Shown: in pieces, positions 14,101 through 55,543 of the stretch
Layout of the letters: every line of letters starts with the position of its first letter
How positions within the stretch are numbered: position 1 is the stretch's first letter
NCBI GenBank assembly: GCA_014804995.1
Contig: JAAUYS010000080.1
Coordinates: 20,343-84,342, forward strand
Length of the DNA: 64,000 bases
Direction of reading: 5' to 3'
DNA from: Clostridia bacterium
Lineage (GTDB): Bacteria > Bacillota > Clostridia > Christensenellales > Borkfalkiaceae
Position numbers and translations under genes: made by a program
Notes under the pieces: generated by a model
Database searches by the model: none
What the model was told of the DNA's origin: nothing
Seen by the model: only the letters and a program-made list of their open reading frames with translations

Positions 14101-17100
14101 TATGACAACAGCTTATGATCTTAAGAATGGAAAAACTATTAGTTTTAATCCTAAAGATTATAGTAATATAGCTGAACAAATTAGAGCATTTCTTATATAT
14201 GCTAATGCTGTATTAGCTGATAAAGAAACTAGAACTATTCAACATAAGGATGATAATTTTGGCATTAATGATGTTGCTGCGGATACTATTAATAAATTAC
14301 GAGATAGATTTCTTAAGCAAATAGAAGATATTCAAAAGAAATATGATAAAATCTTAACACTTTTAGGTACAAAAGGTAAAACTTATATTGAAATAAATGG
14401 AACTGATTATGAAGTAGAAAAGGTTTTAGATGAGGGTATGACTGGTCCTATGATTTATGTTAAAGGTCTTAGAGCTTTTAGTGCTTTCATTACAACTCCT
14501 TATTCTGATGCTGATGCTACTACTAATTATATTCTTAAAAAGAAAGCGCAGAGTTCCGCTCCTGACCTCACCTCTTCCTCTACTGGGGGCAGCAAAGCTA
14601 CTATTAGTTCCACAAGACAACAAATAAGTAACAACGAAGTTAAGCCTAATGAAACTAAATCTACTGTTGAGACTACTATAAATACAGAAGATGATTTAGA
14701 ATCTAATGAAGCTGAAGAAGCAGATGTAGCTGATATTGAATTTGATATAGAAGATGGTAAAACTGCTATTAATTTTAAGTTGGAACATTTTAATACTTCT
14801 GATGCTACTGATTTTCTATTAACATTAATGGAAAATCCTAATTATGATAATGATACAGCTAATGCTATAATAGCTTTATGTAATATCTTAGTTAAAACTG
14901 GTTTTCATAAGAAAGATTATTATAAAAAACTAATTACAAATTATTTAAACGATAATCTTACTGAGAAACAACAAATTATAGTTAATGCTGCTAAAGCTTT
15001 AGCTAAATCATTTAATGTTGATCTTGATTCGGATATATGTTCTTTGAATCCTAAAGGTGATATTGACTATGCTGGTATTTATAATACTATAAATCAATTA
15101 CCTAAATTGTATACACAAGATCTTAAAAAGTATTCTAAATCTATTAAAGGTCTTATTGAAACATTAAAGACTTTTGAAACAAATGATAATGCTGCTAAGA
15201 TGGCTAGAGTAATTTTAGGAGACATTCTTATGAATCCTGAAGCTACTGAAACTAGACTTGATGAACTTTTATCTCAAAGTGCTACAATGCTTAAAGATAT
15301 GATGACTGATGAGTTTATTAATAATCTTAGTTTAATATTTAATCTTATTAATTTCATTAATGATCAAAGAGGATTTAAATCTACTTCTATGAATATGTAT
15401 GACTTGATTACAGGTTTACGTATGCACAGAGGTGATCATTATAGTGATATAACTGATGAAATTTTATCACTTGTTACTACAGTTAAATATATTAAAGAAC
15501 AACTTGCTTCTAGAGTTGATTTTTATAATAACAAATATAAACAAACTAAAGATAAATATTTTAAGAATGCTTATTTGACTTATAAAACATTTAATGATAT
15601 TCTTGATATTGAAGGTAATTATACAGATCTTAAAACTGAAGCAGATGTTATAAGATTTATTAATAACAATCCTATTATATCTTTTGGTAAATCACATTCT
15701 GGTCTTGATATAATATTTGATAATAATGATACACCTCATATTATATTCGATGATTTTGTCAACAGACCTTTTTTAGGTATATATGATATACTTCATCAAA
15801 TTGATGTTGGTGACGAAATTGAATTAGTTCCAACAAATAATGAAGAAAATCCTAACAAAGTTGAATACGATATTGTTTATAGAGACAAAGTTAAAAATAC
15901 TAAACATGTAATAGGTCATATGCCAGCTTTAGAAACTATAGAGAATGGTATAGCTTATGTTATTAAAGGTAGAAACAATGTAAACAATGTTCGTAAATTT
16001 AAGTTTACGCAAGATGATGCTAATATATTTGCAGAATTTCAAAATGTTCTATTTCCATTTATTTATAATTATGGTATAGCTTTTGAAGATAGAAATAATG
16101 TTTCAGAAAAAGAAAGAGAAGCTGCACTTAAAGCTGTTGAAGTATTCTCTGAACAAATTAAAAAATCTGCTTATAAAGATTTAGTTGAAGCCTTTAAAAG
16201 AGTCATTTATGGTAATCTAGAATTAGAACAAATTAATCAGATTATAGATAGTGGTCTTGATACAATACTTGTCGCAGGTAAATCTGAAAAAATAGGTGAA
16301 GTAAAATCTGAAAATCTTCCTTTATCTATAGGTCAAATGTATCAACTTTGTAAAGATATGTTTGCAGGAGTTGTTCTTACAAAAGCTATGGGTAGAGGTA
16401 ATAAAAGTGCTGAATCTATTTTACATACTTTTGAGAATTCTATTAATAGACGAGCTTCTGTATTTAAACATAATCAAGGTATTAGAGGTGATATAAAAGC
16501 TACCGGTAATCATGTTATGACTATTAGTAGTATTGGTGCAGGACAAGTTATAATTAATGAAGACTCTCGAAAAGAAGATAATGAAATTAGTGATGGTCTT
16601 CCAATTATGCACCATAGACAATCACTTGTTAAAACTTTATGTCCCGTTAATATATTTGGTAAAGATCAGTTTAAACCTACAATACTTCAAATAGATGAGA
16701 ATGGTTTTGGATTTGATCCTGAAACAGGTTTTGTTGCTCCTTTAAATAGATTTGCTACTAAGCATACTGGTGATCAATTTATTAAAGGTCGAAATAAAAT
16801 GGTTTGTGTTGTTCAACAAACTAAAAATGTATTTACAACATTTCCAGTTAAACCTAATACTATAATGGGTTCTATTACTGACGAAACTAGAGAAGCTAGA
16901 ATTCAAAAACTTCTTAAGTATAATAAATATATCTCTAATGCTATGTTTGAGATATTTGATTTATTAACTGAAGAAATTAATGTTTCAGATGGTAGAATTA
17001 ATGTAACTAATAGACTTCAAAATGTTATTATTTGTGAAGAATCTTCTTCTGTTGAAAAAAATGATATTCATTTTCAAACAAGTAATGACACTTCTGGTAA

Positions 17101-18961
17101 TAAAGTATTTATAATGTTTAAAGTCACTTATGGTACTGATAAAGAACGGTATATTAAGATGGCTTGTGAAACTACTGAATCTGGAGAACATATTGTTCGT
17201 ATTTATACTGGTAAAGATAAAGACCATGTAGCTTTATATAATGGATCTACAAGTAATCCTAGTTATACTGGTATTGTTACATATAAATTAGGTAATACTA
17301 AAGACGGCATTTATACTAAAGATGAAACTGGTAGAAAAGCTCTTACTTCTTATTTGTATCAGCAGATACCTAATTTAACTAGACAATTCGGTATGGTTAA
17401 TGGTATGGCTGTTGCTAAAGATGTACCTAATAAAGATATGGATCAAAGAAATAATGGCTATGTAGATCCTGTGACAGGTGAATCTTATAAGAACATATAT
17501 GATTACTATATGCGTACTAATGCTATATATAGTGACATAGGTGCAATTAGAGATGAACAAGGTATGAACGTAAGTAACGTAAGTGCTAGTGGTACAAATC
17601 CTGTTAAATTTTCAATAACTTCTAAAGAATTTGATGATCCTAATGCTCAATCTAATCAAACTTTTTATAGTGCTGTAGATGCTATGAAAGAAGTTCAGAA
17701 AGGTGATTATAAAGAGGATTGGGAATCTATTAATGAAGCTGAAGCTATACTTGAAGAAGAAATGGGTGTTAAACCTGTTTATATAGTTCATACTATGAAA
17801 GCTGATAGAATAACTGAAACTGGTTCTGCTCAGCCTAGAAAAGTTCAAGATGGTACAAATGGACTTCCTAGAGGATTTAATTTTAATTCTTATAGAATTG
17901 ATATATTTCATAGTCCAGTATTTGCTTCTAAAAAAGCTAATAAAAATTATTTGACTAAGACTATGTTACATGAGATGCTTCACGTATTCATGATGAAGCA
18001 TTATAATATTACTCAAAGTGAACTTAGACTTAAAGAAATTAGAGAACAAAAAGAAGCTCTTATACAATTTCATAATGAAGAAGTAACTAAGTGGATTAAT
18101 GATTTTATTGCATCTATTAAGGCAGCTAAAGAACGTATAGCTAAAGCTACTGAACCACTAAGTCATAATGATTCTATTATAAATGCTGCTTTAAATACTG
18201 GCGAAACTAGTGTCATAGACCAACTTATAACAATATTTACTAATGAAGTAAATGAAGTAAATGCGAATATTCAAGAATTACTTGAAGCTAGAGCTAAAGG
18301 TACAGATGTTATTATTAATGGTCAACAAACTTTACAAGAAGTATTTACATACGCTTTCACTGAACCTCAAGTATATCATATTCTTAATGCTCTTGAATCA
18401 GTAAGTGAAAGAGATGTTAATGCTGATAATATGCAAACTCCTACAATATGGCAGAAGTTTTTAGATGTTATTCGTAAAATATTTGCTAGAATATTTAATA
18501 TTGCTAATACAGAAGTAAATAAAGGTTCATCTTTAGAACGTTTGATGGATGTAATAAATAAAGTATTTACTAATGGACCTAGTGACATTGATATTAAAAG
18601 TTTTACTATTGGTGATTCGTTGAACTTAGCAGACCCCGGTAGGGAAGAAAATGTGGACAGGAGCGATACTAATAGTGAATCTAGTGGAGATTCTGCTGAA
18701 GAAGCTAATACTGCTGAAGAAGTCGAACCTACTTCTTCTGAAACAAATGAATCTGAAAATGAAGAAGAAACTACTAATGAAGACGATGATGATTTCGGTG
18801 ATTTATTTGTAGATACTAATCATGGTGATATTAAAGCATCTAAAGTTCTAACGAATAATGAGCAAAATAATGTCAAAGATGCCGTAAATTATTTGCATAA
18901 ACTTAATGATATGTCAAATGAAAATATTATCTTTGACGAAATGGAACAAAGAATATGTTAA
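11150..18961 (+). CDS. giant virion protein (2603 aa) with zincin-type HExxH metallopeptidase motif
   Basis: 7.8-kb uninterrupted ORF. HEMLH at 17969-17983 (aa 2274-2278, context LTKTMLHEMLHVFMMKH). Long E/K-rich coiled-coil-like stretch at about 12.9-13.9 kb. Acidic S/E/T-rich tail. Lies directly upstream of the RNAP ORF. Confidence 0.8.
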   Translation: MPIDVSKLTDILDNPSSQSPVLDTFFKPVSTYLQEKGIDNKLLNNLQKHNNNSLAITKYNVDRYIESRARNQSTSDRIGNALAQTVGEVLGGSIEGLGSIIGLLPKLFSTNEAYTRNQLERLGNSINEGFREAFPIYMTEKAQSGNMLERMQGGGYWATMTPSVLGSALGIMLPARGASMLLGKAGRLAINGLSKSQKAAKIFKLANEMQKAKAISKFNKFNDIYASAFISRTLDSSREAYGVYEEQKQWFYDNYNKFIKSDKDGNNILNIDNKEIKIDNNNIDKIAHEYASRAAEKGYWNSMSNIIYDIVEWSGIMGASNTLSKVTRDNLRKALGKGDKYAIMRALHAIPAEAKRNLIGDAGRFGYGALAEMADEMTMSIAMSEGTHSAKKEYGFLSEQENYAGFSDRLHEYLRNPDIWTEGIGGLLGGAGMQTVMPYLERKLNKNQIKKEDAYLKALEHSVDAMRSGMDNIIDALAKGDLVEAKNAEMQSIINQVAANTLDGSLDFYIEMLKNMQESMDHILDIKRRKEANQQITAEEQMALDSAGDLVNNPNIFKSMLNKIETIKPIFERNYDSVPQYVDKDTQSILYEIARRKSVYESHKALIEAELSALEQDDIEEFYQIQDNILDDYLESKYTDENERANKKAEITRYTKNKTQLENAKLQIKYLEKQQNELDKKIKEIDDALNEVKPEEKDTIGEQLKLAKNNAEHRKKSIDTRKTEINKTIDRLNEEAKDITQLDATDKEKAELSEIFKHNKLDPDNYKTDLRFRKALLDSELDYLNSEDAYKDIQNELEAYRRTIDTEVAEDTKKELDKYNTSEELKKHQSDFESSEEAKKAYEAKLKLLETQEKAESEREARAKAVQKQDIENRTKEYLEARGYTSEQSKTDNNLEIPSIDDEDVKLLNQAYSEIQDKDISLSAYLRGKAMDATNESIRSIYSRLADYVDAINEYNENALDFSRVNDSITIAKKLLTDYTGLAFMTTAYDLKNGKTISFNPKDYSNIAEQIRAFLIYANAVLADKETRTIQHKDDNFGINDVAADTINKLRDRFLKQIEDIQKKYDKILTLLGTKGKTYIEINGTDYEVEKVLDEGMTGPMIYVKGLRAFSAFITTPYSDADATTNYILKKKAQSSAPDLTSSSTGGSKATISSTRQQISNNEVKPNETKSTVETTINTEDDLESNEAEEADVADIEFDIEDGKTAINFKLEHFNTSDATDFLLTLMENPNYDNDTANAIIALCNILVKTGFHKKDYYKKLITNYLNDNLTEKQQIIVNAAKALAKSFNVDLDSDICSLNPKGDIDYAGIYNTINQLPKLYTQDLKKYSKSIKGLIETLKTFETNDNAAKMARVILGDILMNPEATETRLDELLSQSATMLKDMMTDEFINNLSLIFNLINFINDQRGFKSTSMNMYDLITGLRMHRGDHYSDITDEILSLVTTVKYIKEQLASRVDFYNNKYKQTKDKYFKNAYLTYKTFNDILDIEGNYTDLKTEADVIRFINNNPIISFGKSHSGLDIIFDNNDTPHIIFDDFVNRPFLGIYDILHQIDVGDEIELVPTNNEENPNKVEYDIVYRDKVKNTKHVIGHMPALETIENGIAYVIKGRNNVNNVRKFKFTQDDANIFAEFQNVLFPFIYNYGIAFEDRNNVSEKEREAALKAVEVFSEQIKKSAYKDLVEAFKRVIYGNLELEQINQIIDSGLDTILVAGKSEKIGEVKSENLPLSIGQMYQLCKDMFAGVVLTKAMGRGNKSAESILHTFENSINRRASVFKHNQGIRGDIKATGNHVMTISSIGAGQVIINEDSRKEDNEISDGLPIMHHRQSLVKTLCPVNIFGKDQFKPTILQIDENGFGFDPETGFVAPLNRFATKHTGDQFIKGRNKMVCVVQQTKNVFTTFPVKPNTIMGSITDETREARIQKLLKYNKYISNAMFEIFDLLTEEINVSDGRINVTNRLQNVIICEESSSVEKNDIHFQTSNDTSGNKVFIMFKVTYGTDKERYIKMACETTESGEHIVRIYTGKDKDHVALYNGSTSNPSYTGIVTYKLGNTKDGIYTKDETGRKALTSYLYQQIPNLTRQFGMVNGMAVAKDVPNKDMDQRNNGYVDPVTGESYKNIYDYYMRTNAIYSDIGAIRDEQGMNVSNVSASGTNPVKFSITSKEFDDPNAQSNQTFYSAVDAMKEVQKGDYKEDWESINEAEAILEEEMGVKPVYIVHTMKADRITETGSAQPRKVQDGTNGLPRGFNFNSYRIDIFHSPVFASKKANKNYLTKTMLHEMLHVFMMKHYNITQSELRLKEIREQKEALIQFHNEEVTKWINDFIASIKAAKERIAKATEPLSHNDSIINAALNTGETSVIDQLITIFTNEVNEVNANIQELLEARAKGTDVIINGQQTLQEVFTYAFTEPQVYHILNALESVSERDVNADNMQTPTIWQKFLDVIRKIFARIFNIANTEVNKGSSLERLMDVINKVFTNGPSDIDIKSFTIGDSLNLADPGREENVDRSDTNSESSGDSAEEANTAEEVEPTSSETNESENEEETTNEDDDDFGDLFVDTNHGDIKASKVLTNNEQNNVKDAVNYLHKLNDMSNENIIFDEMEQRIC
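14552..14598 (+). repeat. GC-rich dispersed repeat, copy a (inside 2603-aa ORF, sense; encodes SSAPDLTSSSTGGSK)
   Basis: AGTTCCGCTCCTGACCTCACCTCTTCCTCTACTGGGGGCAGCAAAGC. Confidence 0.85.
17969..17983 (+). other. HEMLH (HExxH) putative zinc-binding/catalytic motif
   Basis: cat gag atg ctt cac, in frame with ORF 11150..18961. Confidence 0.7.
18623..18670 (-). repeat. GC-rich dispersed repeat, copy b (inside 2603-aa ORF, antisense; encodes DPGREENVDRSDT)
   Basis: Reverse complement: AGTATCGCTCCTGTCCACATTTTCTTCCCTACCGGGGTCTGCTAAGTT. Confidence 0.85.
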
Positions 18962-32394: not shown

Positions 32395-32423
32395 TGCTTA
32401 TAAGTTTACTATTAGTTATGCTA

Positions 32424-32470
32424 AGTGTTGCACGCAACCTCACCTCTTTCCCTACTGGGGATTGGAGAGT
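32424..32470 (+). repeat. GC-rich dispersed repeat, copy c (intergenic)
   Basis: AGTGTTGCACGCAACCTCACCTCTTTCCCTACTGGGGATTGGAGAGT. Confidence 0.85.
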
Positions 32471-32577
32471 ATCTATAAGCCTTTCAGAGCTTCTCTCGGC
32501 TTCATATATTAATTAATTTATGGCAGGTTTAACAATTACTCATACCGATAATTATAGACGCTTAGAAATGCTTTTAT

Positions 32578-32626
32578 GTACTCACCAACTACCAGTAGGG
32601 AACAAAGTGAGGATAGGAGCAACACT
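32578..32626 (-). repeat. GC-rich dispersed repeat, copy d (intergenic)
   Basis: Reverse complement: AGTGTTGCTCCTATCCTCACTTTGTTCCCTACTGGTAGTTGGTGAGTAC. Confidence 0.85.
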
Positions 32627-32636
32627 TAGCTACACT

Positions 32637-32948
32637 TTATGCTTCACTAAAATCAACTTTAGGAGCAGGAATAATAAATTTAAGCATCCTAGCAAGAAAA
32701 GTAACAGATACTTCAAACATTTTACCATTACTAGGATTACGCATTATATAAACAATATTACCTATATATAAATCTGGATCAAGAGATTTAGCTTGAGCTT
32801 TAAATCTAGCATCAGCTGTAGCATACTTCATCACTTTATGTAATATTGTCCAATTACCTGTAAATTGAGGAATCATAGTTCCATCAGGTTTACGAGTAAT
32901 TACATTACCATCACATTCGATATAACATTTATATATTCTTTCTTCCAT
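32637..32948 (-). CDS. hypothetical protein (103 aa), last gene of the minus-strand block
   Basis: ATG overlaps the stop of the upstream DUF932 gene. No motif. Confidence 0.55.
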   Translation of the reverse strand: MEERIYKCYIECDGNVITRKPDGTMIPQFTGNWTILHKVMKYATADARFKAQAKSLDPDLYIGNIVYIMRNPSNGKMFEVSVTFLARMLKFIIPAPKVDFSEA

Positions 32949-40651: not shown

Positions 40652-40659
40652 AATTACAT

Positions 40660-40714
40660 CTTGAAATACTTTACAATCACCAGTAGGGAACAAGGTGAGG
40701 TAAGGAGCGACATT
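40660..40714 (-). repeat. GC-rich dispersed repeat, copy e (between 40714..41193 and the primase gene)
   Basis: Reverse complement: AATGTCGCTCCTTACCTCACCTTGTTCCCTACTGGTGATTGTAAAGTATTTCAAG. It begins at the last base of the upstream TAA stop. Confidence 0.85.
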
Positions 40715-41193
40715 TAGCGTTTTATATTACACTTATCAGAGCCATGATAATGTTCTCCTTCATTATCATTATCTTCAGCACAAGGTTTATGACATTTATG
40801 ACAAATAGCTACATCTTTATCAAAAGGACATTTGTCTAAATTAGGAACCTTGTGATCACAATGATTAGGTCTATTAGGCTTATGTTCAGTATCCGGTCTG
40901 TTAGGTTTATCAGTTCCACATCCTGGTTCAAACGGAGGTCTAAAAGGAGGTCTAGGATGAGGTTTAGCAGTATGTTCTTCCATATATTGCTTTATAACAT
41001 TTACTATTTTATTAGATAAAGCAATAGTCTCCATTTTTTCATTATATTCATCTTCATGAATAGCTAAACGTAAATCAGTATCTTCTAGAACTGGATCTAC
41101 AATAGCTTTAACTTTTTCAGCAATTGTGTTATTAGGTGTACCCCATTTATTAATAGGATGACCATTTTTAGCATTATAAAGAGTTAGAATCAT
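40714..41193 (-). CDS. hypothetical protein with His/Cys/Pro-rich C-terminal half
   Basis: HPRPPFRPPFEPGCG..HKPNRPNHCDHK..CPFDKDVAICHKCHKPC..HYHGSDKC suggests metal binding. Its TAA stop is immediately followed by repeat e. Confidence 0.55.
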   Translation of the reverse strand: MILTLYNAKNGHPINKWGTPNNTIAEKVKAIVDPVLEDTDLRLAIHEDEYNEKMETIALSNKIVNVIKQYMEEHTAKPHPRPPFRPPFEPGCGTDKPNRPDTEHKPNRPNHCDHKVPNLDKCPFDKDVAICHKCHKPCAEDNDNEGEHYHGSDKCNIKR

Positions 41194-41214: not shown

Positions 41215-41245
41215 AAAAAAAAAGGGAGTACCCGTAGGCACTCCC
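41215..41245 (-). terminator. intrinsic terminator after 41276..42109
   Basis: Minus strand: GGGAGTGCC-tacg-GGTACTCCC followed by T9. Confidence 0.8.
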
Positions 41246-41275
41246 TCAACATCAAAACATGAACCAATAAGTAGA

Positions 41276-42109
41276 TTAGTACTTACCACCTGCATACTTT
41301 TCCTGCAAAGCATTAACAGCTTCAGCCGTCATACCAGCAGGAGCATCACCATAACCCATAGACACAGCAGCCGTAGCAGCTTTGCTATCTTTCTTGTCAT
41401 CGTCAGCTCCTTCAGCAAGAACAATGGTCTCACCCGGTTTAATCTCAATAGACGGTTTCTTACCCTCTGTATATCTCTCTACATAACCCTCACCAACAAA
41501 ACCAGGAACAGACAGATATTTACGATCAGGATAATGAGCAATGAGCTTCATCCATACAAGAATATCAGAACCATCTTCATTAATAAATACCGGCTTACCT
41601 TCTTTACCTTTATTAAAAGCATTAACAAAGAATTGACAGAAAGAACGCCATGCTTCAATTCTATCATTAATTGTAGCATTCATGTCAATAGGCTTCGGGA
41701 ATCCCGGCTCTTCAAAATTAGCGCAACCCTTATAAGCATCCAGTCTATGACGACAATGACGATAAGTTTCCATCAAAATAGAACTAAACGTCTTAGCATC
41801 TACAGCAGAACCATCACTCTTCTTAGTAGTAACAATTCTATAAGAATCGCTATAGTATCTGTCAACTTCATCTTCTGCTGTATGAGCTTCTTTATAACGG
41901 AAGACTAAAGTCGGAACAGGAATACCTGCATATTCATAAGTAGATGCAATACCTTTGTCATCAATTTTCGGTGTAGTAGTTTCTTTAATCTCTACAGATA
42001 CCAAAGAACCAAGACACAGATTATTAAATTCAGCACGGGGTTTAAACTTTTTATCCGAGGTTACAACGACTTCTTCAAAACCTACAACACCAACATTAAC
42101 TTCACTCAT
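41276..42109 (-). CDS. hypothetical protein (277 aa), G+C-enriched, probably highly expressed
   Basis: Flanked by intrinsic-terminator hairpins at 42131-42158 (upstream) and 41215-41245 (downstream). Composition is clearly more G+C-rich than its neighbours. Confidence 0.6.
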   Translation of the reverse strand: MSEVNVGVVGFEEVVVTSDKKFKPRAEFNNLCLGSLVSVEIKETTTPKIDDKGIASTYEYAGIPVPTLVFRYKEAHTAEDEVDRYYSDSYRIVTTKKSDGSAVDAKTFSSILMETYRHCRHRLDAYKGCANFEEPGFPKPIDMNATINDRIEAWRSFCQFFVNAFNKGKEGKPVFINEDGSDILVWMKLIAHYPDRKYLSVPGFVGEGYVERYTEGKKPSIEIKPGETIVLAEGADDDKKDSKAATAAVSMGYGDAPAGMTAEAVNALQEKYAGGKY

Positions 42110-46190: not shown

Positions 46191-48498
46191 ATAGATTATT
46201 ACTATTATTATTAATTCCTAGCTTAGCACCTTTACCTGTCTTACCATTACCATATAAAACTTTATTAGCTTCATTTATATAAAACCCAAAGTTTATATTG
46301 TAATCATCTTTAAGTTCATAATCATTAAAAACCATAACCTTTTCACCAGCAACAAGAGACGTTTCTTCAAACATAGGATATTTACTCAAATCATCACCAT
46401 ATTGAAATTCATCGCTTCTTTCTATAACAGCTTTAACAACAGAACCTCCTCCACTATTACAGATATAAAATCTATTATGCTTTTGGAGTTTTAAAGCAAC
46501 AGGTTTACCATCTTGAATTGTTCTATATACAGTAGTATATTTATGATTTACCTTTTGACTAAAACAATAATCATAAATAGCTTTAGGATTACTATGTATA
46601 TAGCTATGTATAAATTCAGAAATATCTGTATTATACAAGAGATAATTCTTAAGAGCTATTTTAACAACAGGATATTCAAAACCTTTATTGTATTCAACTT
46701 CTTGTAGAAAATCTCCTTTATATTTAATAAACTCAGCTTCTATTTTATCTAATGTAGTACATTCTTTACCTTTCTTAGTAACATATCTACCACATCTATT
46801 CCATTCTTGAACAGCATCATAAAATCCATATCCGACAGCTATATAACTATTTACGGCACTTCTACAATACTTTTCAAAAACTTCAGTTTCTAGAGTAAGT
46901 TTACTATATTCTTCCCAATCCTTTGTAATACTATTAAACTCATCTAGTCTAGCAAAAGGTCTTCTAATTAACAAACCATCTGTATTAGCAGATAATACAT
47001 CAAAACCTGCAAGCTCAAAACGTTCAATAAGATTACAAAGAAGTAATTGCAAATTAATAGTAACAGTAAAGGTACATTCAGGATCATATAGATAATCCAT
47101 AGCATCCTTTAAAGCACCATATATTCTATTAATAACAATCTTAAGACCATTAGCTTTATGTTTCTGTCCTGTGTGTTTAGCTTCCAATCGAGTTTCAGTA
47201 AGCCACTTTACAATACCAAGAAATATACTAGGTACAAGATGATGAGGACAAACAGCATAATTAATAATAAAACTGGGATACATTGAATTCACATCAGGAT
47301 CAGCAAGAGCTTCACCAGGATTAGCCCAAATAATCTTAGGATCATCTTTACTATGTAAACCACCAGTAGCTAATGTATATCCTTTATCATTAGAAATAAA
47401 TTCAATATTTTGAAAACTCTTCTTCCAAGTTCTAACTTTAATATAAGGAGTAATCTTTTCTTCTTTAATCTCTGACCTCTTAGGTGTACCAAGACCTATA
47501 CGTATAGAATGTTTATGTAATTCATCAAGTATAGTTTGATAAAAAGGAGTTTGAAATTTAATATTACTCTTTATAATTTTATGAATAGGTACTGAACTTC
47601 TTTCAGTTCTTAAATCAATAAACTCATGAGGTTGAAGACCACTCTTTTCAGAATAGAACTTAGTCATAAGACTTTTACCAATAGAACTTCTAGACATATT
47701 ACGCAGGTCTATATTGAATAAGTCAGACAACTCTGCTCTTAAATCAAGTTCAGCTTGTTGATTCTTAACTAAACAATCAGTACCTAGAACATCATTCATA
47801 TTATAGTCAAGAACATTTTCAATATCTTTAGGTCTAATAAGATGACTATAATGAATAGGCAGATCTTGAATCCTATACCATTTAAGAACAATCATAACAG
47901 CTTTAAGAGCAGTTTTAGATTTATCTAGATATAGAATCTTTTGAATATCGAAATCAGTAAAAGGTCTATAATATCTACGACCTTTATAAAAATCAAGCAT
48001 CTTTCGATATATCCAACCATCAGTTTCAGCAATACACTTTTGTGAATGTTCATACATAAACTCAGTAATATGCTTCTTATTACCATTAGCATCTATTCTT
48101 AATCCAGTACGAGGATCAAAACTAGGAGCATAATGAATAAATATATCAAGCATAGTCATATCATAGTTATAACTATTATAACCAATAAGAGTTTTATGTA
48201 CTTTAAAGAATTGTAATATTTGAGTGATACCTGCTGAATAGTTCTTACTATCATCATACATAGGAAAAGGTGTAGCAGGATTAGTATCATTACTAACATA
48301 TCTATATATATAAAATGTTTTAGCACCAATAGCTTTTAGAATATCTTGCTTAGCTTCTTTATTTTTAGCTAAATCCATTTTAATATATATATCTATAACA
48401 TCTTGTGGAGTTTTATAAGGAATAGCACTAAGACTAAAGAAATTCCTATATATCTCCAAGTCATAAATATACGTTTCCATAACTAGAAGTTTACCCAC
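46180..48498 (-). CDS. polB: family B DNA polymerase
   Basis: Exo I YDLEIY, Exo II YNSYNYDMTMLD, Exo III DYNMNDVLGTD, Pol A DVNSMYPSFII, Pol B KIVINRIYGAL, Pol C SANTDGLLI. Confidence 0.85.
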   Translation of the reverse strand: MGKLLVMETYIYDLEIYRNFFSLSAIPYKTPQDVIDIYIKMDLAKNKEAKQDILKAIGAKTFYIYRYVSNDTNPATPFPMYDDSKNYSAGITQILQFFKVHKTLIGYNSYNYDMTMLDIFIHYAPSFDPRTGLRIDANGNKKHITEFMYEHSQKCIAETDGWIYRKMLDFYKGRRYYRPFTDFDIQKILYLDKSKTALKAVMIVLKWYRIQDLPIHYSHLIRPKDIENVLDYNMNDVLGTDCLVKNQQAELDLRAELSDLFNIDLRNMSRSSIGKSLMTKFYSEKSGLQPHEFIDLRTERSSVPIHKIIKSNIKFQTPFYQTILDELHKHSIRIGLGTPKRSEIKEEKITPYIKVRTWKKSFQNIEFISNDKGYTLATGGLHSKDDPKIIWANPGEALADPDVNSMYPSFIINYAVCPHHLVPSIFLGIVKWLTETRLEAKHTGQKHKANGLKIVINRIYGALKDAMDYLYDPECTFTVTINLQLLLCNLIERFELAGFDVLSANTDGLLIRRPFARLDEFNSITKDWEEYSKLTLETEVFEKYCRSAVNSYIAVGYGFYDAVQEWNRCGRYVTKKGKECTTLDKIEAEFIKYKGDFLQEVEYNKGFEYPVVKIALKNYLLYNTDISEFIHSYIHSNPKAIYDYCFSQKVNHKYTTVYRTIQDGKPVALKLQKHNRFYICNSGGGSVVKAVIERSDEFQYGDDLSKYPMFEETSLVAGEKVMVFNDYELKDDYNINFGFYINEANKVLYGNGKTGKGAKLGINNNSNNLFGW

Positions 48499-49061
48499 TT
48501 ATTAATAAACTTACGATAAGCATCTATAGCAATATCATAAGCTCTATCTAAAAAAGAATAATCATTTTGAACTTTCATATATTCAAGACTAGCAGTTCTA
48601 ATAAGAATCTTATTATTAGGTAATAATTCAATACCCTCCATACCTTTAGCTTCACTACCTTTAATTATAAAATAAGGATTCTTACCATATACTATAAACA
48701 TACTAGGATTAATTCTTTCAATCTCACGTTTAAGTCTAGGAAAGCAAGAGCTTATATGATTAGACTTAACTTGAGAATTAACACCACATTTAACAATACT
48801 AGTGAAATACGATAAATTAAGAAGACCTTTATCATTTAAGATACGTCTAACTAATTTACCAGTATTACCACTAAGTATTATTTTACTTCTACAATCAGCA
48901 GGACTAGGAGCAGTAACTAAGTGCATTATAGTACCGCTCCTGTCCACACCATTTCCCCTACTGGGGGTCATTGAGTTCCTAATACATAACTCACAAGCAT
49001 CACAATAATCAAGTGTTTCATCTTTAGGAAGCTCACCTAACAACTTATTAAACCTCCCCAC
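48483..49061 (-). CDS. uracil-DNA glycosylase superfamily (family 4-like) protein with degenerate motif A
   Basis: CDACELC..GNG..IMHLVTAPSPAD..GNTGKLVRRIL..YFTSIVKCG follows the family-4 UDG layout, but GE(A/G)PG reads VTAPS. Repeat f lies inside (TPSRGNGVDRSGT). Confidence 0.5.
   Translation of the reverse strand: MGRFNKLLGELPKDETLDYCDACELCIRNSMTPSRGNGVDRSGTIMHLVTAPSPADCRSKIILSGNTGKLVRRILNDKGLLNLSYFTSIVKCGVNSQVKSNHISSCFPRLKREIERINPSMFIVYGKNPYFIIKGSEAKGMEGIELLPNNKILIRTASLEYMKVQNDYSFLDRAYDIAIDAYRKFINKWVNF
48930..48976 (+). repeat. GC-rich dispersed repeat, copy f (antisense inside the UDG-like gene)
   Basis: AGTACCGCTCCTGTCCACACCATTTCCCCTACTGGGGGTCATTGAGTT. Confidence 0.85.
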
Positions 49062-49353
49062 AATAATCTCTAAATTCGTCAGGTAATTCTAAAAAACGAT
49101 AACCGTCACTAGCAGGAATAAAAAGATTAGTATCTAAAATATTAACATGAAATCCTTTTGTTAAATCATCATATTGATTAGATTCAATGTTAGTTAATTG
49201 TTTGTATTGTTGAAAGTTCATAGGCTCATACAAACACATACTTTCACCATTAAGAAAACATTCTTTTACTTGAACTAATGCCATAACACTTAAATTAATT
49301 ATTAAACACTTTGCAATCCCCAGTAGAGGAATAGATGTGGACATGAGCGACAT
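49048..49353 (-). CDS. hypothetical protein; the first 23 codons are repeat g (alternative start ATG 49284)
   Basis: MSLMSTSIPLLGIAKC is encoded by the repeat. MALVQVKE at 49284 is the likely true start. Confidence 0.45.
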   Translation of the reverse strand: MSLMSTSIPLLGIAKCLIINLSVMALVQVKECFLNGESMCLYEPMNFQQYKQLTNIESNQYDDLTKGFHVNILDTNLFIPASDGYRFLELPDEFRDYCGEV

Positions 49354-49354
49354 T
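49301..49354 (-). repeat. GC-rich dispersed repeat, copy g (at the junction of 49353..49685 and 49048..49353)
   Basis: Reverse complement: AATGTCGCTCATGTCCACATCTATTCCTCTACTGGGGATTGCAAAGTGTTTAAT. The upstream TAA overlaps its ATG. Confidence 0.85.
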
Positions 49355-49685
49355 AAGCGGAAACATCTGCAAATACACTATTACCATTCTTATATTTAAG
49401 AGTAGAACAATTAACAGCATTCATCTTAATACCTAATCCAGCACATTTAGCTTTAATGAAATCCATACTACCAAGATTATCAACATTTAAACCACTAGCA
49501 AATAGATGATGTTCTAAAACTTCAATTTCACTCATAGAACATTCTTTTGCTACATAAGTAATAGGTATCATCCAACGACCATTGATTATAGTCTGACCAC
49601 TACCCATACCACAAGGCATATTCCAACATTCTCTTAATACATAAATTTCATCAATATTCTCAATTTGATCTTTGTCAACTAGCAT
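49353..49685 (-). CDS. hypothetical protein (about 110 aa)
   Basis: Start placed at ATG 49685 (MLVDKDQ), overlapping the upstream stop by 11 nt. The ORF-track start is 49766. Confidence 0.5.
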   Translation of the reverse strand: MLVDKDQIENIDEIYVLRECWNMPCGMGSGQTIINGRWMIPITYVAKECSMSEIEVLEHHLFASGLNVDNLGSMDFIKAKCAGLGIKMNAVNCSTLKYKNGNSVFADVSA

Positions 49686-50028
49686 TTTTAGATTTATTAA
49701 TTGCATCAGCAAATACTTCATCAAATTCTTTTTTGTGCATAGCAATAACACATCCTCTAACATCAATAGTAAGAATACTTTTAGGAACTAAAACATATCC
49801 TTGCAAGCTATGATCTTCATCTATAGATAAAATATATACTTTATCAGTACCTGCTTTTTCTTCACATTCTTTACAAGGATGTGTTCCAAGTATTTGTCTA
49901 GGAGCTTCAGCATCTCCTTTTAGTTTACCAAGTAAAGCTACTCCAGTAGTTTCGCCACAAATAGGACATATCATCATACTAGGATTAACTCCATGTTTTT
50001 TGCTTAAAATAATATCATCTTTAGCCAT
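49675..50028 (-). CDS. small zinc-ribbon protein
   Basis: Two CxxC pairs: CPICGE and CKECEE. Confidence 0.5.
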   Translation of the reverse strand: MAKDDIILSKKHGVNPSMMICPICGETTGVALLGKLKGDAEAPRQILGTHPCKECEEKAGTDKVYILSIDEDHSLQGYVLVPKSILTIDVRGCVIAMHKKEFDEVFADAINKSKNAS

Positions 50029-52393: not shown

Positions 52394-52406
52394 AATTTTA
52401 AGATTA

Positions 52407-52434: not shown

Positions 52435-52441
52435 ATTTAAC

Positions 52442-53563: not shown

Positions 53564-53566
53564 AAT

Positions 53567-55161: not shown

Positions 55162-55204
55162 ACAGAACCAAACGTAATCACAAAGTCTTCCGAGTAATAC
55201 TCAT

Positions 55205-55250
55205 AGTGTTGCTCCTATCCGCATCTTATTCCCTACTGGGGGTTGCAGAG
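55205..55250 (+). repeat. GC-rich dispersed repeat, copy h (3' end of 55226..55543, antisense)
   Basis: AGTGTTGCTCCTATCCGCATCTTATTCCCTACTGGGGGTTGCAGAG. Confidence 0.85.
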
Positions 55251-55543
55251 CCATTATAAGCAACAGCACATTGAGCATCATATTCTGCTATAGCTTCACA
55301 AGATACAACGACAGTTAGATTCTTTTGAGCAATAACTATAGAATTGGCAATATCGGCAGCATACGTTATTTGTTGTAATTCTCCTCTTATACCATATTCT
55401 CTAATAATACTCGTTAAATAATCTGCAAGAAACTTTGTATAGCTTTGTTTCTTAAAGTGTATCTCTTTACCATATACACATTCTACTCCATTAGATGTAA
55501 ATATGGCTTCTCCTGTTATATCATTTATTAAATATACATACAT
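55226..55543 (-). CDS. hypothetical protein (105 aa); the last ~12 codons are antisense of repeat h
   Basis: The C-terminus YNGSATPSRE* is encoded by the repeat. Confidence 0.5.
   Translation of the reverse strand: MYVYLINDITGEAIFTSNGVECVYGKEIHFKKQSYTKFLADYLTSIIREYGIRGELQQITYAADIANSIVIAQKNLTVVVSCEAIAEYDAQCAVAYNGSATPSRE

What the first reader, a model, noticed from the sequence alone, without database searches (positions are those of the whole stretch)
14552..55261. Eight dispersed copies of a ~48-nt GC-rich element in both orientations, inside genes and between genes
The copies are:
- a 14552-14598 (+)
- b 18623-18670 (-)
- c 32424-32470 (+)
- d 32578-32626 (-)
- e 40660-40714 (-)
- f 48930-48976 (+)
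- g 49301-49354 (-)
- h 55205-55250 (+)

Written in one orientation they align without gaps. They share a sharp 5' boundary (A[A/G]T), then CGCTCC, CC[T/A]CA, an almost invariant TTCCCTACTGGGG core, and a weaker TTG..AAGT tail. In 6 of 8 copies CCCC-TACT-GGGG can form a 4-bp hairpin. The element is visibly far more G+C-rich than its AT-rich surroundings.

It is read in at least three different ways:
- Sense in the 2603-aa ORF (a: SSAPDLTSSSTGGSK).
- Antisense in that ORF and in the UDG-like gene (b: DPGREENVDRSDT; f: TPSRGNGVDRSGT).
- As the first codons of ORF 49048..49353 (g: MSLMSTSIPLLG).

Copies c, d and e are non-coding. Conservation is therefore at the nucleotide level, not the peptide level.

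The orientation order is + - + - - + - +. Three neighbouring pairs (a/b, c/d, f/g) face each other with the sharp boundary outward, like terminal inverted repeats. I do not recognise this as a described crAss-like feature, but I cannot verify that without a search.

Candidate explanations:
- A miniature mobile GC-cluster or MITE-like element tolerated in frame.
- Linker sequences for recombinational module exchange.
- A recognition site for a phage DNA-binding, nicking, priming or transcription protein.
Basis: seen in the sequence. Interest (0 to 1): 0.85.

Follow-up and report, generated by a model that had tools for sequence, protein, structure and literature searches.

The report
Conserved GC-rich hairpin repeats in crAss-like phages
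The eight GC-rich repeats are real and belong to an apparently undescribed family of short hairpin-core DNA elements found in many gut crAss-like phages (32 copies in the prototype crAssphage), kept at fixed genome positions, even inside genes, and probably read as DNA by an unidentified factor.

Summary
A profile finds exactly eight copies (E<1e-15; next hit E>5), and the core occurs 8 times against 0.18 expected.

The "recent mobile insert" reading is mostly not supported.
- Relatives with 45-75% protein identity carry copies at the same places: the convergent pair c/d, upstream of the primase-like gene, inside the UDG-like gene, upstream of the small ORF before UDG, and the h site.
- Copy f is not an insertion. 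Its peptide aligns with a conserved family-4 UDG segment.

The element is one dialect of a wider family.
- cr127_1 has 10 copies of its own version at analogous positions.
- Prototype crAssphage has 32 copies of TCCTCYACGGGGRGT.
- Cultured crAss002 has 29 copies.
- Cellulophaga phage phi14:2 has none.

Coding copies are read in five frames. I found no Rfam match, no covarying structure beyond a 3-4 bp hairpin, no host or CRISPR counterpart, and no mention in the searched literature. Two crAssphage strains share all alignable sites, and one site shows a conversion-like triple change.

Best reading: an ancient, vertically inherited, concertedly evolving cis-element read at the DNA level, most likely a recognition site for a replication/recombination enzyme (nicking or priming). 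That function is inferred. Rivals are a selfish GC-cluster-like repeat and a transcription or RNA signal.

The parts
14541..14611 (+). Copy a. It is sense inside the 2603-aa ORF (11150..18961) and reads ..SSAPDLTSSSTGGSKA.. in a Ser/Thr-rich linker.
   Evidence: nhmmer hit, E = 2e-17. Protein context. The sense copy of the crAssphage dialect in gp45 is read in the same SSTG(G/S) frame.
18612..18681 (-). Copy b. It is antisense inside the same ORF, about 290 nt before its stop and about 310 nt before the start of the 4456-aa virion RNA-polymerase-like ORF. It reads ..NLADPGREENVDRSDT.. in an acidic linker.
   Evidence: nhmmer hit, E = 5e-16. Context. An analogous antisense copy lies near the C-terminus of cr127_1 gp48 and of crAssphage gp45.
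32414..32481 (+). Copy c. It is non-coding and lies just after a hairpin plus T-run (about 32358-32392) that follows the 4456-aa ORF.
   Evidence: nhmmer hit, E = 2e-18. Sequence.
32568..32637 (-). Copy d. It is non-coding and starts 10 nt after the stop of the last gene of the minus-strand block (32637..32948). Together with c it forms a 75-nt-arm inverted repeat.
   Evidence: nhmmer hit, E = 1e-18. Inverted repeat I1. The fold of 32400-32650 has z = -6.8. The same two-copy arrangement occurs in relatives.
40658..40723 (-). Copy e. It fills the spacer between the stop of ORF 40714..41193 (the TAA lies inside the element's 5' box) and the start of the primase-like gene (MWATTDKEY..).
   Evidence: nhmmer hit, E = 1e-17. 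Translation. There is a weak Toprim match. Orthologous copies occur in about 20 relatives. cr127_1 has a copy of its own dialect upstream of its annotated primase.
48919..48987 (+). Copy f. It is antisense inside the UDG-like gene (48483..49061, minus strand) and encodes ..MTPSRGNGVDRSGT.. with G+C-rich codons that are atypical for this 29% G+C genome.
   Evidence: nhmmer hit, E = 9e-17. The peptide aligns with the conserved V-x-G-E-G segment of solved family-4 UDGs with only a 3-residue excess. Orthologous copies occur in relatives, and a copy of the cr127_1 dialect sits at the same place in the cr127_1 UDG.
49296..49363 (-). Copy g. It is sense, and its 5' box contains the stop of ORF 49353..49766. 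It lies about 20 nt upstream of the probable start (MALVQ..) of the small ORF that precedes UDG.
   Evidence: nhmmer hit, E = 7e-18.. Orthologous copies.
55195..55264 (+). Copy h. It is antisense and overlaps the last codons and stop of ORF 55226..55543, at the edge of a 650-nt gene-free stretch. It has its own closing stem TGTTGCT/AGCAACA.
   Evidence: nhmmer hit, E = 1e-19.. Copies in the same orientation lie in the corresponding, longer gene-free stretch of L009 and L027.

Best explanation
**What it is (largely shown)**
The eight copies are the local dialect of an ancient family of dispersed, G+C-rich elements with a small hairpin core. The family is shared by several lineages of gut crAss-like phages.
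- The common core is roughly TCC-YYTAY-GGGG, a 3-4 bp G+C stem with a 4-5 nt loop.
- The 10-25 nt on either side differ between lineages but are shared by all copies within a genome.
- Copies are inherited vertically at fixed positions. These include positions inside conserved genes, where the protein sequence has been bent to fit the element.
- Copies in one genome evolve in concert, at least partly through gene conversion between them.

**How it most likely works (inferred)**
The core is a recognition site read on DNA, either double-stranded or as a hairpin on transiently single-stranded DNA. It is not read as protein, and it need not be read as mRNA.

My preferred candidate is an enzyme of the phage replication/recombination apparatus that nicks or primes at the site. 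That would give about one site per 3-8 kb on both strands. Repeated breakage and repair at the sites would also account for conversion between copies.

**Confidence**
The stated 0.35 applies to the whole statement. I put the descriptive part at about 0.85 and the nicking/priming mechanism at about 0.3.
For: **The family is real and wide**
- This window: 8 copies against 0.18 expected.
- IMG/VR relatives: 69 copies in 41 loci.
- cr127_1: 10 copies of ACGAATTTCGGAACACCTCTCGCCCTTGTGGCCATTAAAC. This aligns with the window element as CACCT....CCCT..TGG..ATT.
- Prototype crAssphage: 32 copies of TCCTCYACGGGGRGT. The first 50 kb has 17, and none occurred in 100 shuffles.
- crAss002: 29 copies, none in shuffles.
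- Other Crudevirinae also carry the crAssphage dialect.

**Positions are conserved**
- The c/d pair, e, f, g and h have counterparts in relatives with 45-75% protein identity.
- cr127_1 has copies inside UDG (antisense), upstream of the primase (sense), as an inverted pair near the end of the replication block, and as a sense-plus-antisense pair near the C-terminus of the giant protein gene just upstream of the RNA polymerase gene.
- crAssphage gp45 shows the same sense-then-antisense order.
- The SSTGG copy in the tail tubular protein keeps TCCTCTACGGGGG in three genera that are 40-50% identical in that protein.

**Constraint is on nucleotides**
- Five reading frames are used.
- Copy f overlies a conserved UDG segment without a length change.
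- ACGGGG changed at 1 of 189 positions between two strains, against 5.8 expected.

**The reading is on DNA rather than mRNA**
- 13 of 27 coding copies and 5 of 23 intergenic copies are antisense to the local genes.
- There is no covarying RNA structure and no Rfam match.

**Evolution is concerted**
- Flanks are genome-specific.
- Only f tracks orthology in sequence.
- Site 50971 changed at three positions at once to another haplotype of the family.

**Resemblance to known nick sites (a lead only)**
- Mapped nick sites are CGACxxxxxCCTA/CTCCGG in phiKMV-like phages and TACT/RTGMC in phage tf. They are lineage-specific, positionally conserved among relatives and reported at 14 sites in tf (PMC3517423).
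- Long variants in crAssphage and crAss002 carry a second hairpin of the GCGAAGC type. From my own memory, this type is known as an unusually stable single-stranded DNA mini-hairpin.
Against: - No reader protein was identified. PHROGs and Pfam gave no nickase, HUH, transposase or recombinase candidate near the copies.
- All experimentally mapped phage nick sites lie on one strand only. These elements are split 4:4 here, 5:5 in cr127_1 and 13:19 in crAssphage.
- Intergenic copies are biased towards the sense orientation (18 of 23). This hints at some role or cost at the RNA level.
- The core as a whole is not depleted of SNPs between two crAssphage strains (3.55% against 3.07%).
- The hairpin is weak in d, e and in the cr127_1 dialect.
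- A purely selfish repeat kept alike by gene conversion explains much of the same evidence.
- Nothing here measures nicks, primers, transcripts or binding.
Confidence: 0.35

Rival explanations
1. It is a selfish, non-autonomous G+C-cluster-type repeat, comparable to yeast mitochondrial GC clusters, Rickettsia palindromic elements or REP/BIME. It spread long ago, is tolerated in spacers and in flexible protein loops, and is kept recognisable only by gene conversion between copies. It has no function for the phage.
For: - It is G+C-rich in an AT-rich genome, occurs in both orientations and is read in every open frame.
- Copies a and b lie in low-complexity linkers.
- Intergenic copies hug stop codons, where insertions are harmless.
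- Inverted pairs are common.
- crAssphage gp50 has 60-70 extra residues that span its convergent pair.
- Copy number differs widely, from 8-10 to 29-32.
- Gains or losses exist. L009 and L010 have a copy between two genes that overlap (ATGA) in the window. L043 has a copy where the window has an AT palindrome.
- There is a conversion-like triple change at site 50971, and sequence does not track orthology.
- The overall SNP rate in the core equals the genome background.
Against: - The core has stayed nearly the same in Intestiviridae, in this lineage and partly in Crevaviridae, while the flanks drifted. Drift plus conversion alone should also move the core.
- ACGGGG is depleted of changes.
- Copy f overwrites a conserved UDG segment with rare codons, and a copy sits at that place in two lineages with different dialects.
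- The sense-then-antisense pair in the giant gene upstream of the RNA polymerase gene recurs in three lineages.
- There are no presence/absence differences at 3% divergence.
- No transposase-like gene was found. There are no target-site duplications.
- None of the 13 hits to the searched pattern in 185,579 bacterial and archaeal genomes extends beyond the pattern itself.
Confidence: 0.3
2. It is a transcription or RNA signal. One version is a promoter for the phage virion RNA polymerase, perhaps used as an extruded hairpin as in phage N4. Another is an mRNA boundary element, such as a 3'-end stabiliser, processing site or factor-dependent terminator.
For: - Intergenic copies are mostly sense (18 of 23).
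- Solo copies lie 0-20 nt after a stop codon and 15-150 nt before the next start.
- Divergent pairs lie in the region between the two oppositely oriented gene blocks, each copy pointing into its block. This holds for crAssphage 95756-/95864+ and for cr127_1 copies 1769+ and 82350-. It probably holds for L027 7795-/7927+.
- Inverted pairs lie at or near the junction where the two blocks converge.
- Variation in the stem (C/T opposite G, A/G opposite T) keeps pairing only on the element's own strand.
- The phi14:2 virion RNA polymerase transcribes only single-stranded or denatured DNA in vitro, and its early promoters are unknown.
- Lineage-specific consensus sequences are typical of promoters for phage-encoded polymerases.
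Against: - About half of the coding copies (14 of 27) are antisense, including conserved ones inside UDG and near the end of the giant gene.
- Promoter-like copies at the ends of gene blocks (c, d), pointing at each other, have no gene to serve.
- A terminator makes no sense at the head of a block or in the middle of a 2603-aa gene.
- The phage uses ordinary hairpin-plus-T-run terminators (41247-41222; about 32358-32392), and the elements lack T runs.
- There is no conserved RNA structure and no covariation.
- phi14:2, the phage with the transcription data, has no such family.
- The published crAss middle promoters are AT-rich and sigma-70-like.
Confidence: 0.2
3. It is a mimic of host CRISPR repeats, that is, solitary repeat units acting as RNA anti-CRISPRs (Racr). 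The dialects would follow the repeats of each phage's host.
For: - The form is a small G+C hairpin followed by ATTG-N-AAAG (this window) or ATTAAAC (cr127_1). From memory, this recalls the ATTGAAAC/G end of many type I and III repeats.
- A real type III-A array in a metagenome (L151) has the repeat GATTAGATATAAGAACCCCCAGTAGGGGACGAGAAC. Its hairpin is the exact reverse complement of the core.
- Racrs are known to be widespread in phages (PMC10651486).
Against: - Similarity to that repeat and to related ones stops at the 14-16 nt hairpin. Half of that was imposed by my search pattern.
- None of the 120 returned array-like metagenome loci matches the profiles of this window's element, the cr127_1 dialect or the crAssphage dialect, apart from one marginal hit at L151 (E = 0.008).
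- No genuine hit was found in 185,579 species genomes for the longer pattern.
- The element is 45+ nt long, and 8-32 copies sit in both orientations and inside genes.
- Described Racrs are solitary intergenic units, often just downstream of a predicted promoter.
- Positions are conserved while dialects change.
Confidence: 0.05
4. The copies act as recombination linkers. Short shared sequences would let related phages exchange modules, or let segments invert between inverted copies.
For: - Pairs in inverted orientation bracket variable segments, as in crAssphage gp50.
- Window copy c lies next to the polymerase gene, yet it resembles the copy that in relative L044 lies next to the replication block (0.77 against 0.62 for d). 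An inversion of the c-d unit, or conversion, would produce this.
- A RecT-like gene is present.
Against: - Breakpoints of the alignment between two crAssphage strains are no closer to the sites than chance (median 930 nt against 1074 nt, P = 0.37).
- Gene order is collinear across all the relatives examined.
- Inversion between a/b or f/g would destroy essential genes.
- Copies in this window are only 58-78% identical to each other, which makes them poor substrates.
Confidence: 0.05

Closest known systems
Yeast mitochondrial GC clusters and Rickettsia palindromic elements (RPE)
   Same: Both are short G+C-rich, hairpin-capable repeats scattered through an AT-rich genome. They occur in both orientations, in spacers and in frame inside protein genes, where they add or replace loop residues. 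Positions are inherited among related genomes. This comparison rests on established knowledge.
   Different: - Here the core has stayed nearly constant across virus families, while the flanks change in concert.
- At least one copy (f) overlies a conserved enzyme segment without any insertion.
- There is no sign of recent mobility.
- The genome is a lytic phage of about 100 kb.
REP/BIME elements with their RAYT transposases
   Same: Both are species-specific short imperfect palindromes with a conserved GTAG/CTAC tetranucleotide. They are often arranged as inverted pairs, lie just after stop codons, and occur in many copies kept alike within a genome.
   Different: - REPs are strictly extragenic and depend on a RAYT gene flanked by REPs. 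No RAYT or HUH gene was detected here.
- Nearly half of the copies counted in this window, cr127_1 and crAssphage (27 of 50) are inside genes.
Localized single-strand nick sites of T5-like, phiKMV-like and tf/LUZ24-like phages
   Same: - They are dispersed at 4-14 sites per genome with a lineage-specific consensus.
- They have similar positions in related phages.
- Their biological role is unknown.
- The consensus sequences CCTA/CTCCGG and TACT/RTGMC resemble CCCTACTGGGG (PMC3517423).
   Different: - The known sites are 7-19 nt long and lie on one strand only.
- The sites here are longer, lie on both strands and often occur as inverted pairs.
- Nicking has not been tested.
DNA uptake sequences (DUS/USS) of Neisseriaceae and Pasteurellaceae
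   Same: They are short asymmetric tags in many copies, inside and outside genes and in both orientations. They often occur as inverted pairs after genes. Lineage-specific 'dialects' co-evolve with a protein reader. This comparison rests on established knowledge.
   Different: - DUS number in the thousands, are 10-12 nt long and serve uptake of DNA by competent cells.
- No reader or analogous process is known for phages.
Hairpin promoters of the phage N4 virion RNA polymerase
   Same: Both involve a small G+C hairpin with specific flanking bases, read on one strand. crAss-like phages, like N4, inject a giant virion RNA polymerase. In vitro that polymerase needs single-stranded template.
   Different: - From memory, N4 has three such promoters, all at one genome end and in one orientation.
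- Here there are 8-32 sites, many of them antisense and inside late genes.

Membership tests
MITE / non-autonomous transposon | Terminal inverted repeats bracketing a unit that is flanked by target-site duplications | tested here: not met
   The single element has no terminal inverted repeats. The pairs c/d, f/g and a/b do face outward. However, the flanks of c/d show no direct duplication, and the f/g 'unit' would contain the native N-terminus of UDG.
MITE / non-autonomous transposon | Presence/absence polymorphism (empty sites) among close relatives | tested here: inconclusive
   There are no differences between two crAssphage strains 3% apart. A few gains or losses appear at 45-75% protein identity (L009/L010 site, L043 site).
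In-frame GC-cluster / RPE-type insertion | The copy appears as an extra segment relative to homologous proteins | tested here: not met
   This is not met for f. It aligns to solved family-4 UDGs with a 3-residue excess and is shorter than the cr127_1 UDG at this point. It could not be tested for a and b, because no close homologue was retrieved. The pair in crAssphage gp50 does span extra residues.
REP/BIME | Strictly extragenic location and a cognate RAYT (HUH Y1) gene | tested here: not met
   Three of the 8 copies here, and 21 of the 32 in crAssphage, are inside genes. No HUH or transposase match was found among the 40 window ORFs scanned.
CRISPR repeat mimic (solitary repeat unit / Racr) | Full-length similarity to the repeat of a CRISPR array in a plausible host | tested here: not met
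   - The scan of bacterial and archaeal genomes gave only chance hits.
- None of the 120 returned array-like metagenome loci matches the profiles beyond the core.
Known structured RNA (Rfam) | A match to a covariance model, or a conserved structure with covariation | tested here: not met
   No Rfam hit was found at any copy, even at E up to 1. RNAalifold on 28 distinct copies finds only the 4-bp hairpin, with no compensatory pairs.
Intrinsic terminator | A G+C hairpin followed by a T run, in sense orientation at operon ends | tested here: not met
   No T run follows any copy. Canonical terminators exist separately at 41247-41222 and at about 32358-32392 (read).
Phage-polymerase promoter (T7-type or N4 hairpin type) | All copies oriented with the genes they serve, with transcripts starting at the site | tested here: inconclusive
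   Orientation: 18 of 23 intergenic copies are sense, but only 13 of 27 coding copies are. Transcript starts cannot be tested with these tools.
Site-specific nick sites (T5 / phiKMV / tf type) | Ligase-repairable single-strand interruptions at the consensus, all on one strand | not testable with these tools
   Only sequence resemblance and a similar genomic distribution can be shown. The one-strand rule is not met (4:4, 5:5 and 13:19).

The most novel reading that the evidence does not exclude
Gut crAss-like phages carry a genome-wide 'tag code'. It would consist of 8-32 copies of a hairpin-core element whose invariant core and lineage-specific flanks are read by a dedicated phage factor. Candidates are a site-specific nickase or primase loader, the injected virion RNA polymerase using hairpin promoters, or a self-DNA recognition system analogous to DNA uptake sequences. 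The code would be strong enough to override codon choice and even the amino-acid sequence inside conserved genes such as UDG, the DNA polymerase and the virion RNA polymerase.
Probability: 0.4. Interest if true: 0.85.

Novelty: new variant of a known kind. Interest (0 to 1): 0.72.

Why it matters
crAss-like phages are the most abundant viruses of the human gut. Their replication mode, origins, early promoters and DNA-level regulation are largely unknown.

A conserved, order-wide cis-element gives a concrete handle on that biology. It has 32 copies in the prototype crAssphage and 29 in the cultured crAss002, and it is embedded even in essential genes.
- It points to an unidentified sequence-specific factor.
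- It explains odd G+C-rich, rare-codon patches and Ser/Thr/Gly loops in crAss proteins.
- Its lineage-specific dialects could serve as markers for classification and for tracking recombination.
- It is directly testable in crAss002 with its host Bacteroides xylanisolvens.

If it turns out to be only a selfish repeat, it would still be an unusual case. It would be an RPE- or GC-cluster-like element that has persisted by gene conversion in lytic phage genomes.

Tried and rejected
1. **Known RNA families.** Rfam at E up to 1 on the window and on crAssphage found nothing at the copies. ARAGORN found no tRNA.
2. **Conserved RNA structure.** RNAalifold on 28 distinct copies found only the mini-hairpin, with no covariation. 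Single-copy folds differ from copy to copy. Some copies have private closing stems (h, L043, L009 copies) but in no common register.
3. **Host-derived repeat or CRISPR repeat.** The scan of bacterial and archaeal genomes gave 13 chance hits. The metagenome scan for arrays gave at least 120 loci with no match beyond the core.
4. **Homologues around copy a.** I tried to fetch homologues of the 2603-aa protein around copy a to look for an empty site. None was found.
5. **A reader or mobilising gene.** PHROGs and Pfam scans of 40 window ORFs gave only replication genes: ligase, RecT-like, Dda-like helicase, Gam-like, DUF932, MazG, a kinase and ThyX-like. crAssphage has RepL genes near two of its pairs, but the window and cr127_1 have no RepL next to theirs.
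6. **Universality in crAss-like phages.** This was rejected, because phi14:2 has no such family.
7. **Identity with the published crAss middle promoters.** This was rejected, because those are AT-rich and sigma-70-like.
8. **Sites as mosaic breakpoints between strains.** There was no enrichment.
9. **Vertical inheritance of copy-specific sequence variants.** I first thought these variants were inherited vertically. The identity matrix shows this clearly only for f, so I withdrew that claim.
10. **Resemblances dismissed as chance.** These were to the 16S rRNA 3' end, sigma-54 and sigma-70 boxes, the T4 MotA box and ops elements. I noticed them by eye and dropped them because they are not conserved across copies.

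Full report

Yes.
- A profile built from them recovers exactly eight hits in the 64-kb window (E = 1e-19 to 5e-16). The next hit is at E = 5.9.
- The core TTCCCTACTGGGG, allowing two mismatches, occurs eight times. The mean in 100 dinucleotide-preserving shuffles is 0.18, and no shuffle reached eight.
- The repeat finder independently groups the copies. It also reports that c and d belong to a 75-nt, 76%-complementary inverted repeat at 32420-32494 / 32556-32630.
- The window is 29.3% G+C, and the copies are among its strongest G+C islands.

Refinements:
- The similarity runs for about 60-70 nt.
In e and g it contains the TAA stop codon of the upstream gene.
- A perfect 4-bp stem exists only in f. 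Copies d and e keep two pairs.
- Copy g is probably 5' of the true start of the small ORF.
- Copy h overlaps the last codons and the stop of ORF 55226..55543.

**2. Genomic setting**

The window comes from a distant crAss-like phage.
- Megablast finds nothing in 50,697 phage records.
- The family-B DNA polymerase is at best 37% identical to that of cr127_1 (Kahucivirus, Crevaviridae).
- Genes form two converging blocks.
  - The plus-strand block runs from 462 to 32349. It holds the tail tubular protein homologue, four large proteins and the 4456-aa virion RNA-polymerase-like protein.
  - The minus-strand block runs from 32637 to 63742. It holds replication genes: ligase, a primase-like gene, a RecT-like gene, the DNA polymerase, a UDG-like gene and a Dda-like helicase.

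Where the copies sit:
- Copies c and d lie exactly at the point of convergence. Copy c follows a hairpin plus T run at about 32358-32392. I read this. The scanner did not call it, because its loop is 13 nt.
- Copies e and g fill short spacers between genes.
- Copies a and b lie in low-complexity linkers of the 2603-aa protein.
- Copy f lies in the 5' part of the UDG-like gene.

**3. Not a fresh insertion**

The peptide encoded by f (MTPSRGNGVDRSGT) aligns with the conserved V-x-G-E-G..(I/L)M segment of solved family-4 UDGs, with only three extra residues. It also aligns with the corresponding, slightly longer, segment of the cr127_1 UDG. The element therefore overlies ordinary conserved coding sequence. 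That sequence is written with codons (CCC, AGG, GGA, GTG, GAC, AGC) that are unusual for a 29% G+C genome.

**4. Relatives carry the element at the same places**

A scan of IMG/VR for TTCCCTACTGGGGNTTG returned 49 loci. The profile finds 69 copies in 41 of them.

I ran tblastn with the window's proteins against these loci. They are collinear relatives with 45-75% protein identity. Their copies lie at the same positions:
- a two-copy inverted unit at the convergence point;
- a copy upstream of the primase-like gene;
- a copy inside UDG, antisense;
- a copy upstream of the small ORF before UDG;
- a copy in the gene-free stretch that corresponds to h.

In L044 the convergence point has the same order as in the window: end of the replication block, copy, spacer, copy, bidirectional hairpin plus T run, end of the polymerase gene.

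There is some turnover.
- L009 and L010 have a copy in a 93-nt spacer between two genes. In the window these genes overlap by ATGA.
- L043 has a copy after the homologue of ORF 1218..5612. The window has an AT-rich palindrome there.

**5. The element is one dialect of a wider family**

| Phage | Copies | Consensus |
|---|---|---|
| This window | 8 | core TTCCCTACTGGGG |
| cr127_1 (Kahucivirus) | 10 (five per strand) | ACGAATTTCGGAACACCTCTCGCCCTTGTGGCCATTAAAC |
| Prototype crAssphage (Carjivirus communis) | 32 | TCCTCYACGGGGRGT |
| crAss002 (cultured) | 29 | CTCCTYTAYGGGGGA |
| Cellulophaga phage phi14:2 | none | - |

*cr127_1.* The window's profile finds nothing in this genome, but it has its own dialect. 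Its copies lie:
- inside UDG at the same spot (antisense);
- just after UDG;
- upstream of the primase (sense);
- as an inverted pair near the end of the replication block;
- as a sense-plus-antisense pair near the C-terminus of the 2509-aa protein gene that precedes the polymerase gene;
- in two further spacers of the late block, one of them at its head;
- at the start of a 2-kb repeat-rich non-coding region.

The cr127_1 sequence aligns with the window's element as CACCT....CCCT..TGG..ATT. At the UDG site, 17 of 33 nucleotides match between the two dialects.

*Prototype crAssphage.* The first 50 kb has 17 copies, and none occurred in 100 shuffles. Twenty-one of the 32 copies are inside genes, including the DNA polymerase, an SNF2 helicase, the ligase, the primase and five sites in the virion RNA polymerase. 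The core is almost identical to the variant CCTCTACCGGGGTCTGC seen in relatives of the window.

*Other genomes.* The crAssphage dialect occurs in other Crudevirinae. phi14:2, the marine crAss-like phage with transcription data, has only its published AT-rich promoters.

*Long variants.* In crAssphage and crAss002, a subset of copies carries a 3' extension: AGCG, then a 4-6 bp hairpin of variable sequence, then AGCGG. The hairpin is often of the GCGAAGC type.

**6. How the copies are read**

In crAssphage, the coding copies use three sense frames (SSTGG, ILYGG, HPLRG) and both open antisense frames (LPVED, TPRGG). Conservation is therefore at the nucleotide level.

The sense copy in the tail tubular protein keeps TCCTCTACGGGGG in Carjivirus, Delmidovirus and Diorhovirus, although the proteins are only 40-50% identical.

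The sense copy in the giant protein upstream of the polymerase gene is read as SSTG(G/S) both in crAssphage gp45 and in the window's copy a.

Orientation relative to local genes, counted over the window, cr127_1 and crAssphage:
- Intergenic copies: 18 of 23 are sense. Three of the five antisense ones belong to inverted pairs.
- Coding copies: 13 of 27 are sense.
- In crAss002, 17 of 29 are sense relative to the gene block they lie in.

An element needed only in mRNA, or acting only as a promoter or terminator, would not be antisense in half of its coding sites. That includes sites conserved between lineages.

**7. Structure, known families and hosts**

- Rfam gives nothing at the copies, even at E up to 1.
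- RNAalifold on 28 distinct copies predicts only the 4-bp hairpin, without compensatory changes.
- In the cr127_1 dialect the hairpin is reduced to two pairs plus one. Recognition therefore seems to be mainly by sequence.
- A pattern scan of one genome for each of 185,579 bacterial and archaeal species gave 13 hits, scattered across unrelated, mostly G+C-rich taxa. All of them match only the pattern itself.
- A metagenome scan for CRISPR-like arrays containing CTACNGGGG returned at least 120 loci.
  - None matches the profiles of the window's element, the cr127_1 dialect or the crAssphage dialect beyond the core.
  - One locus, L151, is a genuine type III-A locus. The hairpin of its repeat is the reverse complement of the core, but the similarity ends there.

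**8. Evolutionary behaviour**

Two crAssphage strains differ at 3.07% of aligned positions.
- All 31 alignable sites are retained at the same positions. Neither strain has a private site.
- The 16-nt core as a whole is not depleted of differences (3.55%).
- The differences cluster at two 'toggle' positions.
- ACGGGG changed at 1 of 189 positions, against 5.8 expected.
- Site 50971 differs at three positions at once, and the result is another common haplotype of the family. The simplest explanation is gene conversion from another copy.

In the window's lineage, only f is clearly more similar to its positional counterpart than to other copies (0.77 against at most 0.68). Window copy c resembles the copy that occupies the d position in L044.

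Positions are therefore inherited, while sequences evolve in concert within genomes. The flanks differ between lineages, yet the core TCC-YYTAY-GGGG has persisted in Intestiviridae and in this lineage, and in a weakened form in cr127_1. This argues that something reads the core.

**9. What it most likely is**

*Shown:* the element is an old, order-level family of dispersed cis-elements at largely fixed positions. It is constrained at the nucleotide level, evolves in concert, is not recently mobile, and matches no known RNA, host repeat or CRISPR repeat.

*Inferred:* it is a recognition site read on DNA. I favour a site for an enzyme of replication or recombination that nicks or primes at the core. 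My reasons are:
- the sites occur on both strands, about every 3-8 kb;
- they are indifferent to reading frame and, within genes, to transcription direction;
- they have lineage-specific consensus sequences and conserved positions, as do the mapped nick sites of phiKMV-like and tf-like phages;
- those nick-site consensus sequences (CCTA/CTCCGG, TACT/RTGMC) resemble the core (PMC3517423);
- breakage at the sites would promote the conversion seen between copies.

Arguments against this:
- known nick sites lie on one strand only;
- no candidate enzyme was found;
- intergenic copies are sense-biased.

I put this mechanism at about 0.3 and the descriptive conclusion at about 0.85.

**10. Rivals**

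1. *Selfish GC-cluster/RPE/REP-like repeat kept alike by conversion (about 0.3).* It explains frame-indifference, linker locations, pairs, copy-number differences and the background SNP rate. It does not easily explain the long-term constancy of the core, the overwritten UDG segment shared by two dialects, or the recurrent pair upstream of the polymerase gene.
2. *Transcription or RNA signal (about 0.2).* In favour are the sense bias of intergenic copies, copies that flank the region between the two diverging gene blocks and point into each block, proximity to stop codons, and the single-stranded-template requirement of the crAss virion polymerase. Against are the many antisense coding copies, the copies at block ends, and the presence of ordinary terminators.
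3. *CRISPR-repeat mimic (about 0.05).*
4. *Recombination linker (about 0.05).* Alignment breakpoints are not enriched near the sites.

**11. Novelty**

I found no description of these repeats. I searched the library:
- for the motif itself;
- in the main comparative paper on crAss-like genomes;
- in a 2023 review of Crassvirales;
- by several keyword combinations.

The library lacks many subscription papers, so this is not proof. In kind, the family is closest to GC clusters, RPEs, REPs, DNA uptake sequences and phage nick sites. It fits none of them on their defining features. I therefore rate it a new variant of a known kind, with a substantial chance of pointing to an unknown recognition system in the most abundant human gut phages.

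Noticed in passing
window 32358-32392: A hairpin, AGAGGACTA..(13-nt loop)..TAGTCCTCT, is followed by TTTTTT right after the stop of the 4456-aa ORF. It is a likely intrinsic terminator. The scanner missed it because of its long loop. L044 has a comparable bidirectional hairpin at 9968-10020.
   Followed up: partly
window 41222-41247 (minus strand): A canonical terminator-like hairpin (11 pairs, then a T run of 7) lies between ORF 41276..42109 and ORF 40714..41193. Its loop region reads CCTACGGG, which faintly echoes the element core. Weak Rfam sbrA and L20-leader hits here are probably this hairpin.
   Followed up: no
window 5611-5718: A very AT-rich (7% G+C) palindromic TATA-type stretch lies in the spacer between ORF 1218..5612 and ORF 5748..8309. 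The relative L043 has an element copy at the corresponding place instead.
   Followed up: partly
window 63697-63744: A G+C island, GCATTGTAGCATGCCTAGGAATCGAACCTAGGCTAGTACCATACATGC, looks like the reverse complement of a tRNA T-arm and acceptor end (GGTTCGATTCC). ARAGORN called no tRNA in the window. It may be a tRNA fragment or a gene cut by the ORF call.
   Followed up: no
window 48483-49061: The UDG-like protein keeps the N-terminal Cys motif of family-4 UDGs. Where the solved family-4 enzymes have GEAPG or GEGPG, it has TAPSP. It may therefore not be an active glycosylase.
   Followed up: no
L063 (cr127_1) 1698-3950 and 11930-12060: Two copies of the cr127_1 dialect (1769+ and 11912+) are both followed by CGTTACAACTGTCTT(T). 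After the second, this continues as tandem TTACAACTGTCT repeats. The first opens a roughly 2-kb repeat-rich stretch annotated only with tiny ORFs. It may be the counterpart of the highly transcribed early non-coding regions reported for phi14:2.
   Followed up: no
L067/L068 (crAssphage) 6021, 28088, 28172, 44964, 58738, 93678, 95864; crAss002 4208, 47838, 64753, 64774, 86224, 89646: Long variants of the element carry a 3' extension: AGCG, then a 4-6 bp hairpin whose sequence varies while its pairing is kept, then AGCGG. The hairpin is often GCGAAGC or has a GNA/GNRA-type loop. Two of the crAssphage pairs with this extension lie upstream of the two RepL-like genes.
   Followed up: partly
L068 8139-9068 (crAssphage gp50, tail tubular protein): The protein has 60-70 extra, Cys-rich residues relative to homologues from crAss002, this window, cr127_1 and phi14:2. 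The extra stretch spans the protein's convergent pair of element copies.
   Followed up: partly
L151 7053-14500 (metagenome contig ERZ1026856.2): This is a complete-looking type III-A CRISPR locus (cas6, cas10, csm2-5) with at least 15 repeats of GATTAGATATAAGAACCCCCAGTAGGGGACGAGAAC. The repeat hairpin is the exact reverse complement of the element core. The organism was not identified.
   Followed up: partly
L067 8406-8620 (crAssphage UDG): crAssphage has no full element in its UDG. At the homologous spot, however, the codons GGT GGT AGA GGA AGT (GGRGS) read on the other strand as CTTCCTCTACC, which is half of the core. This may be a relic, or a seed for conversion.
   Followed up: no
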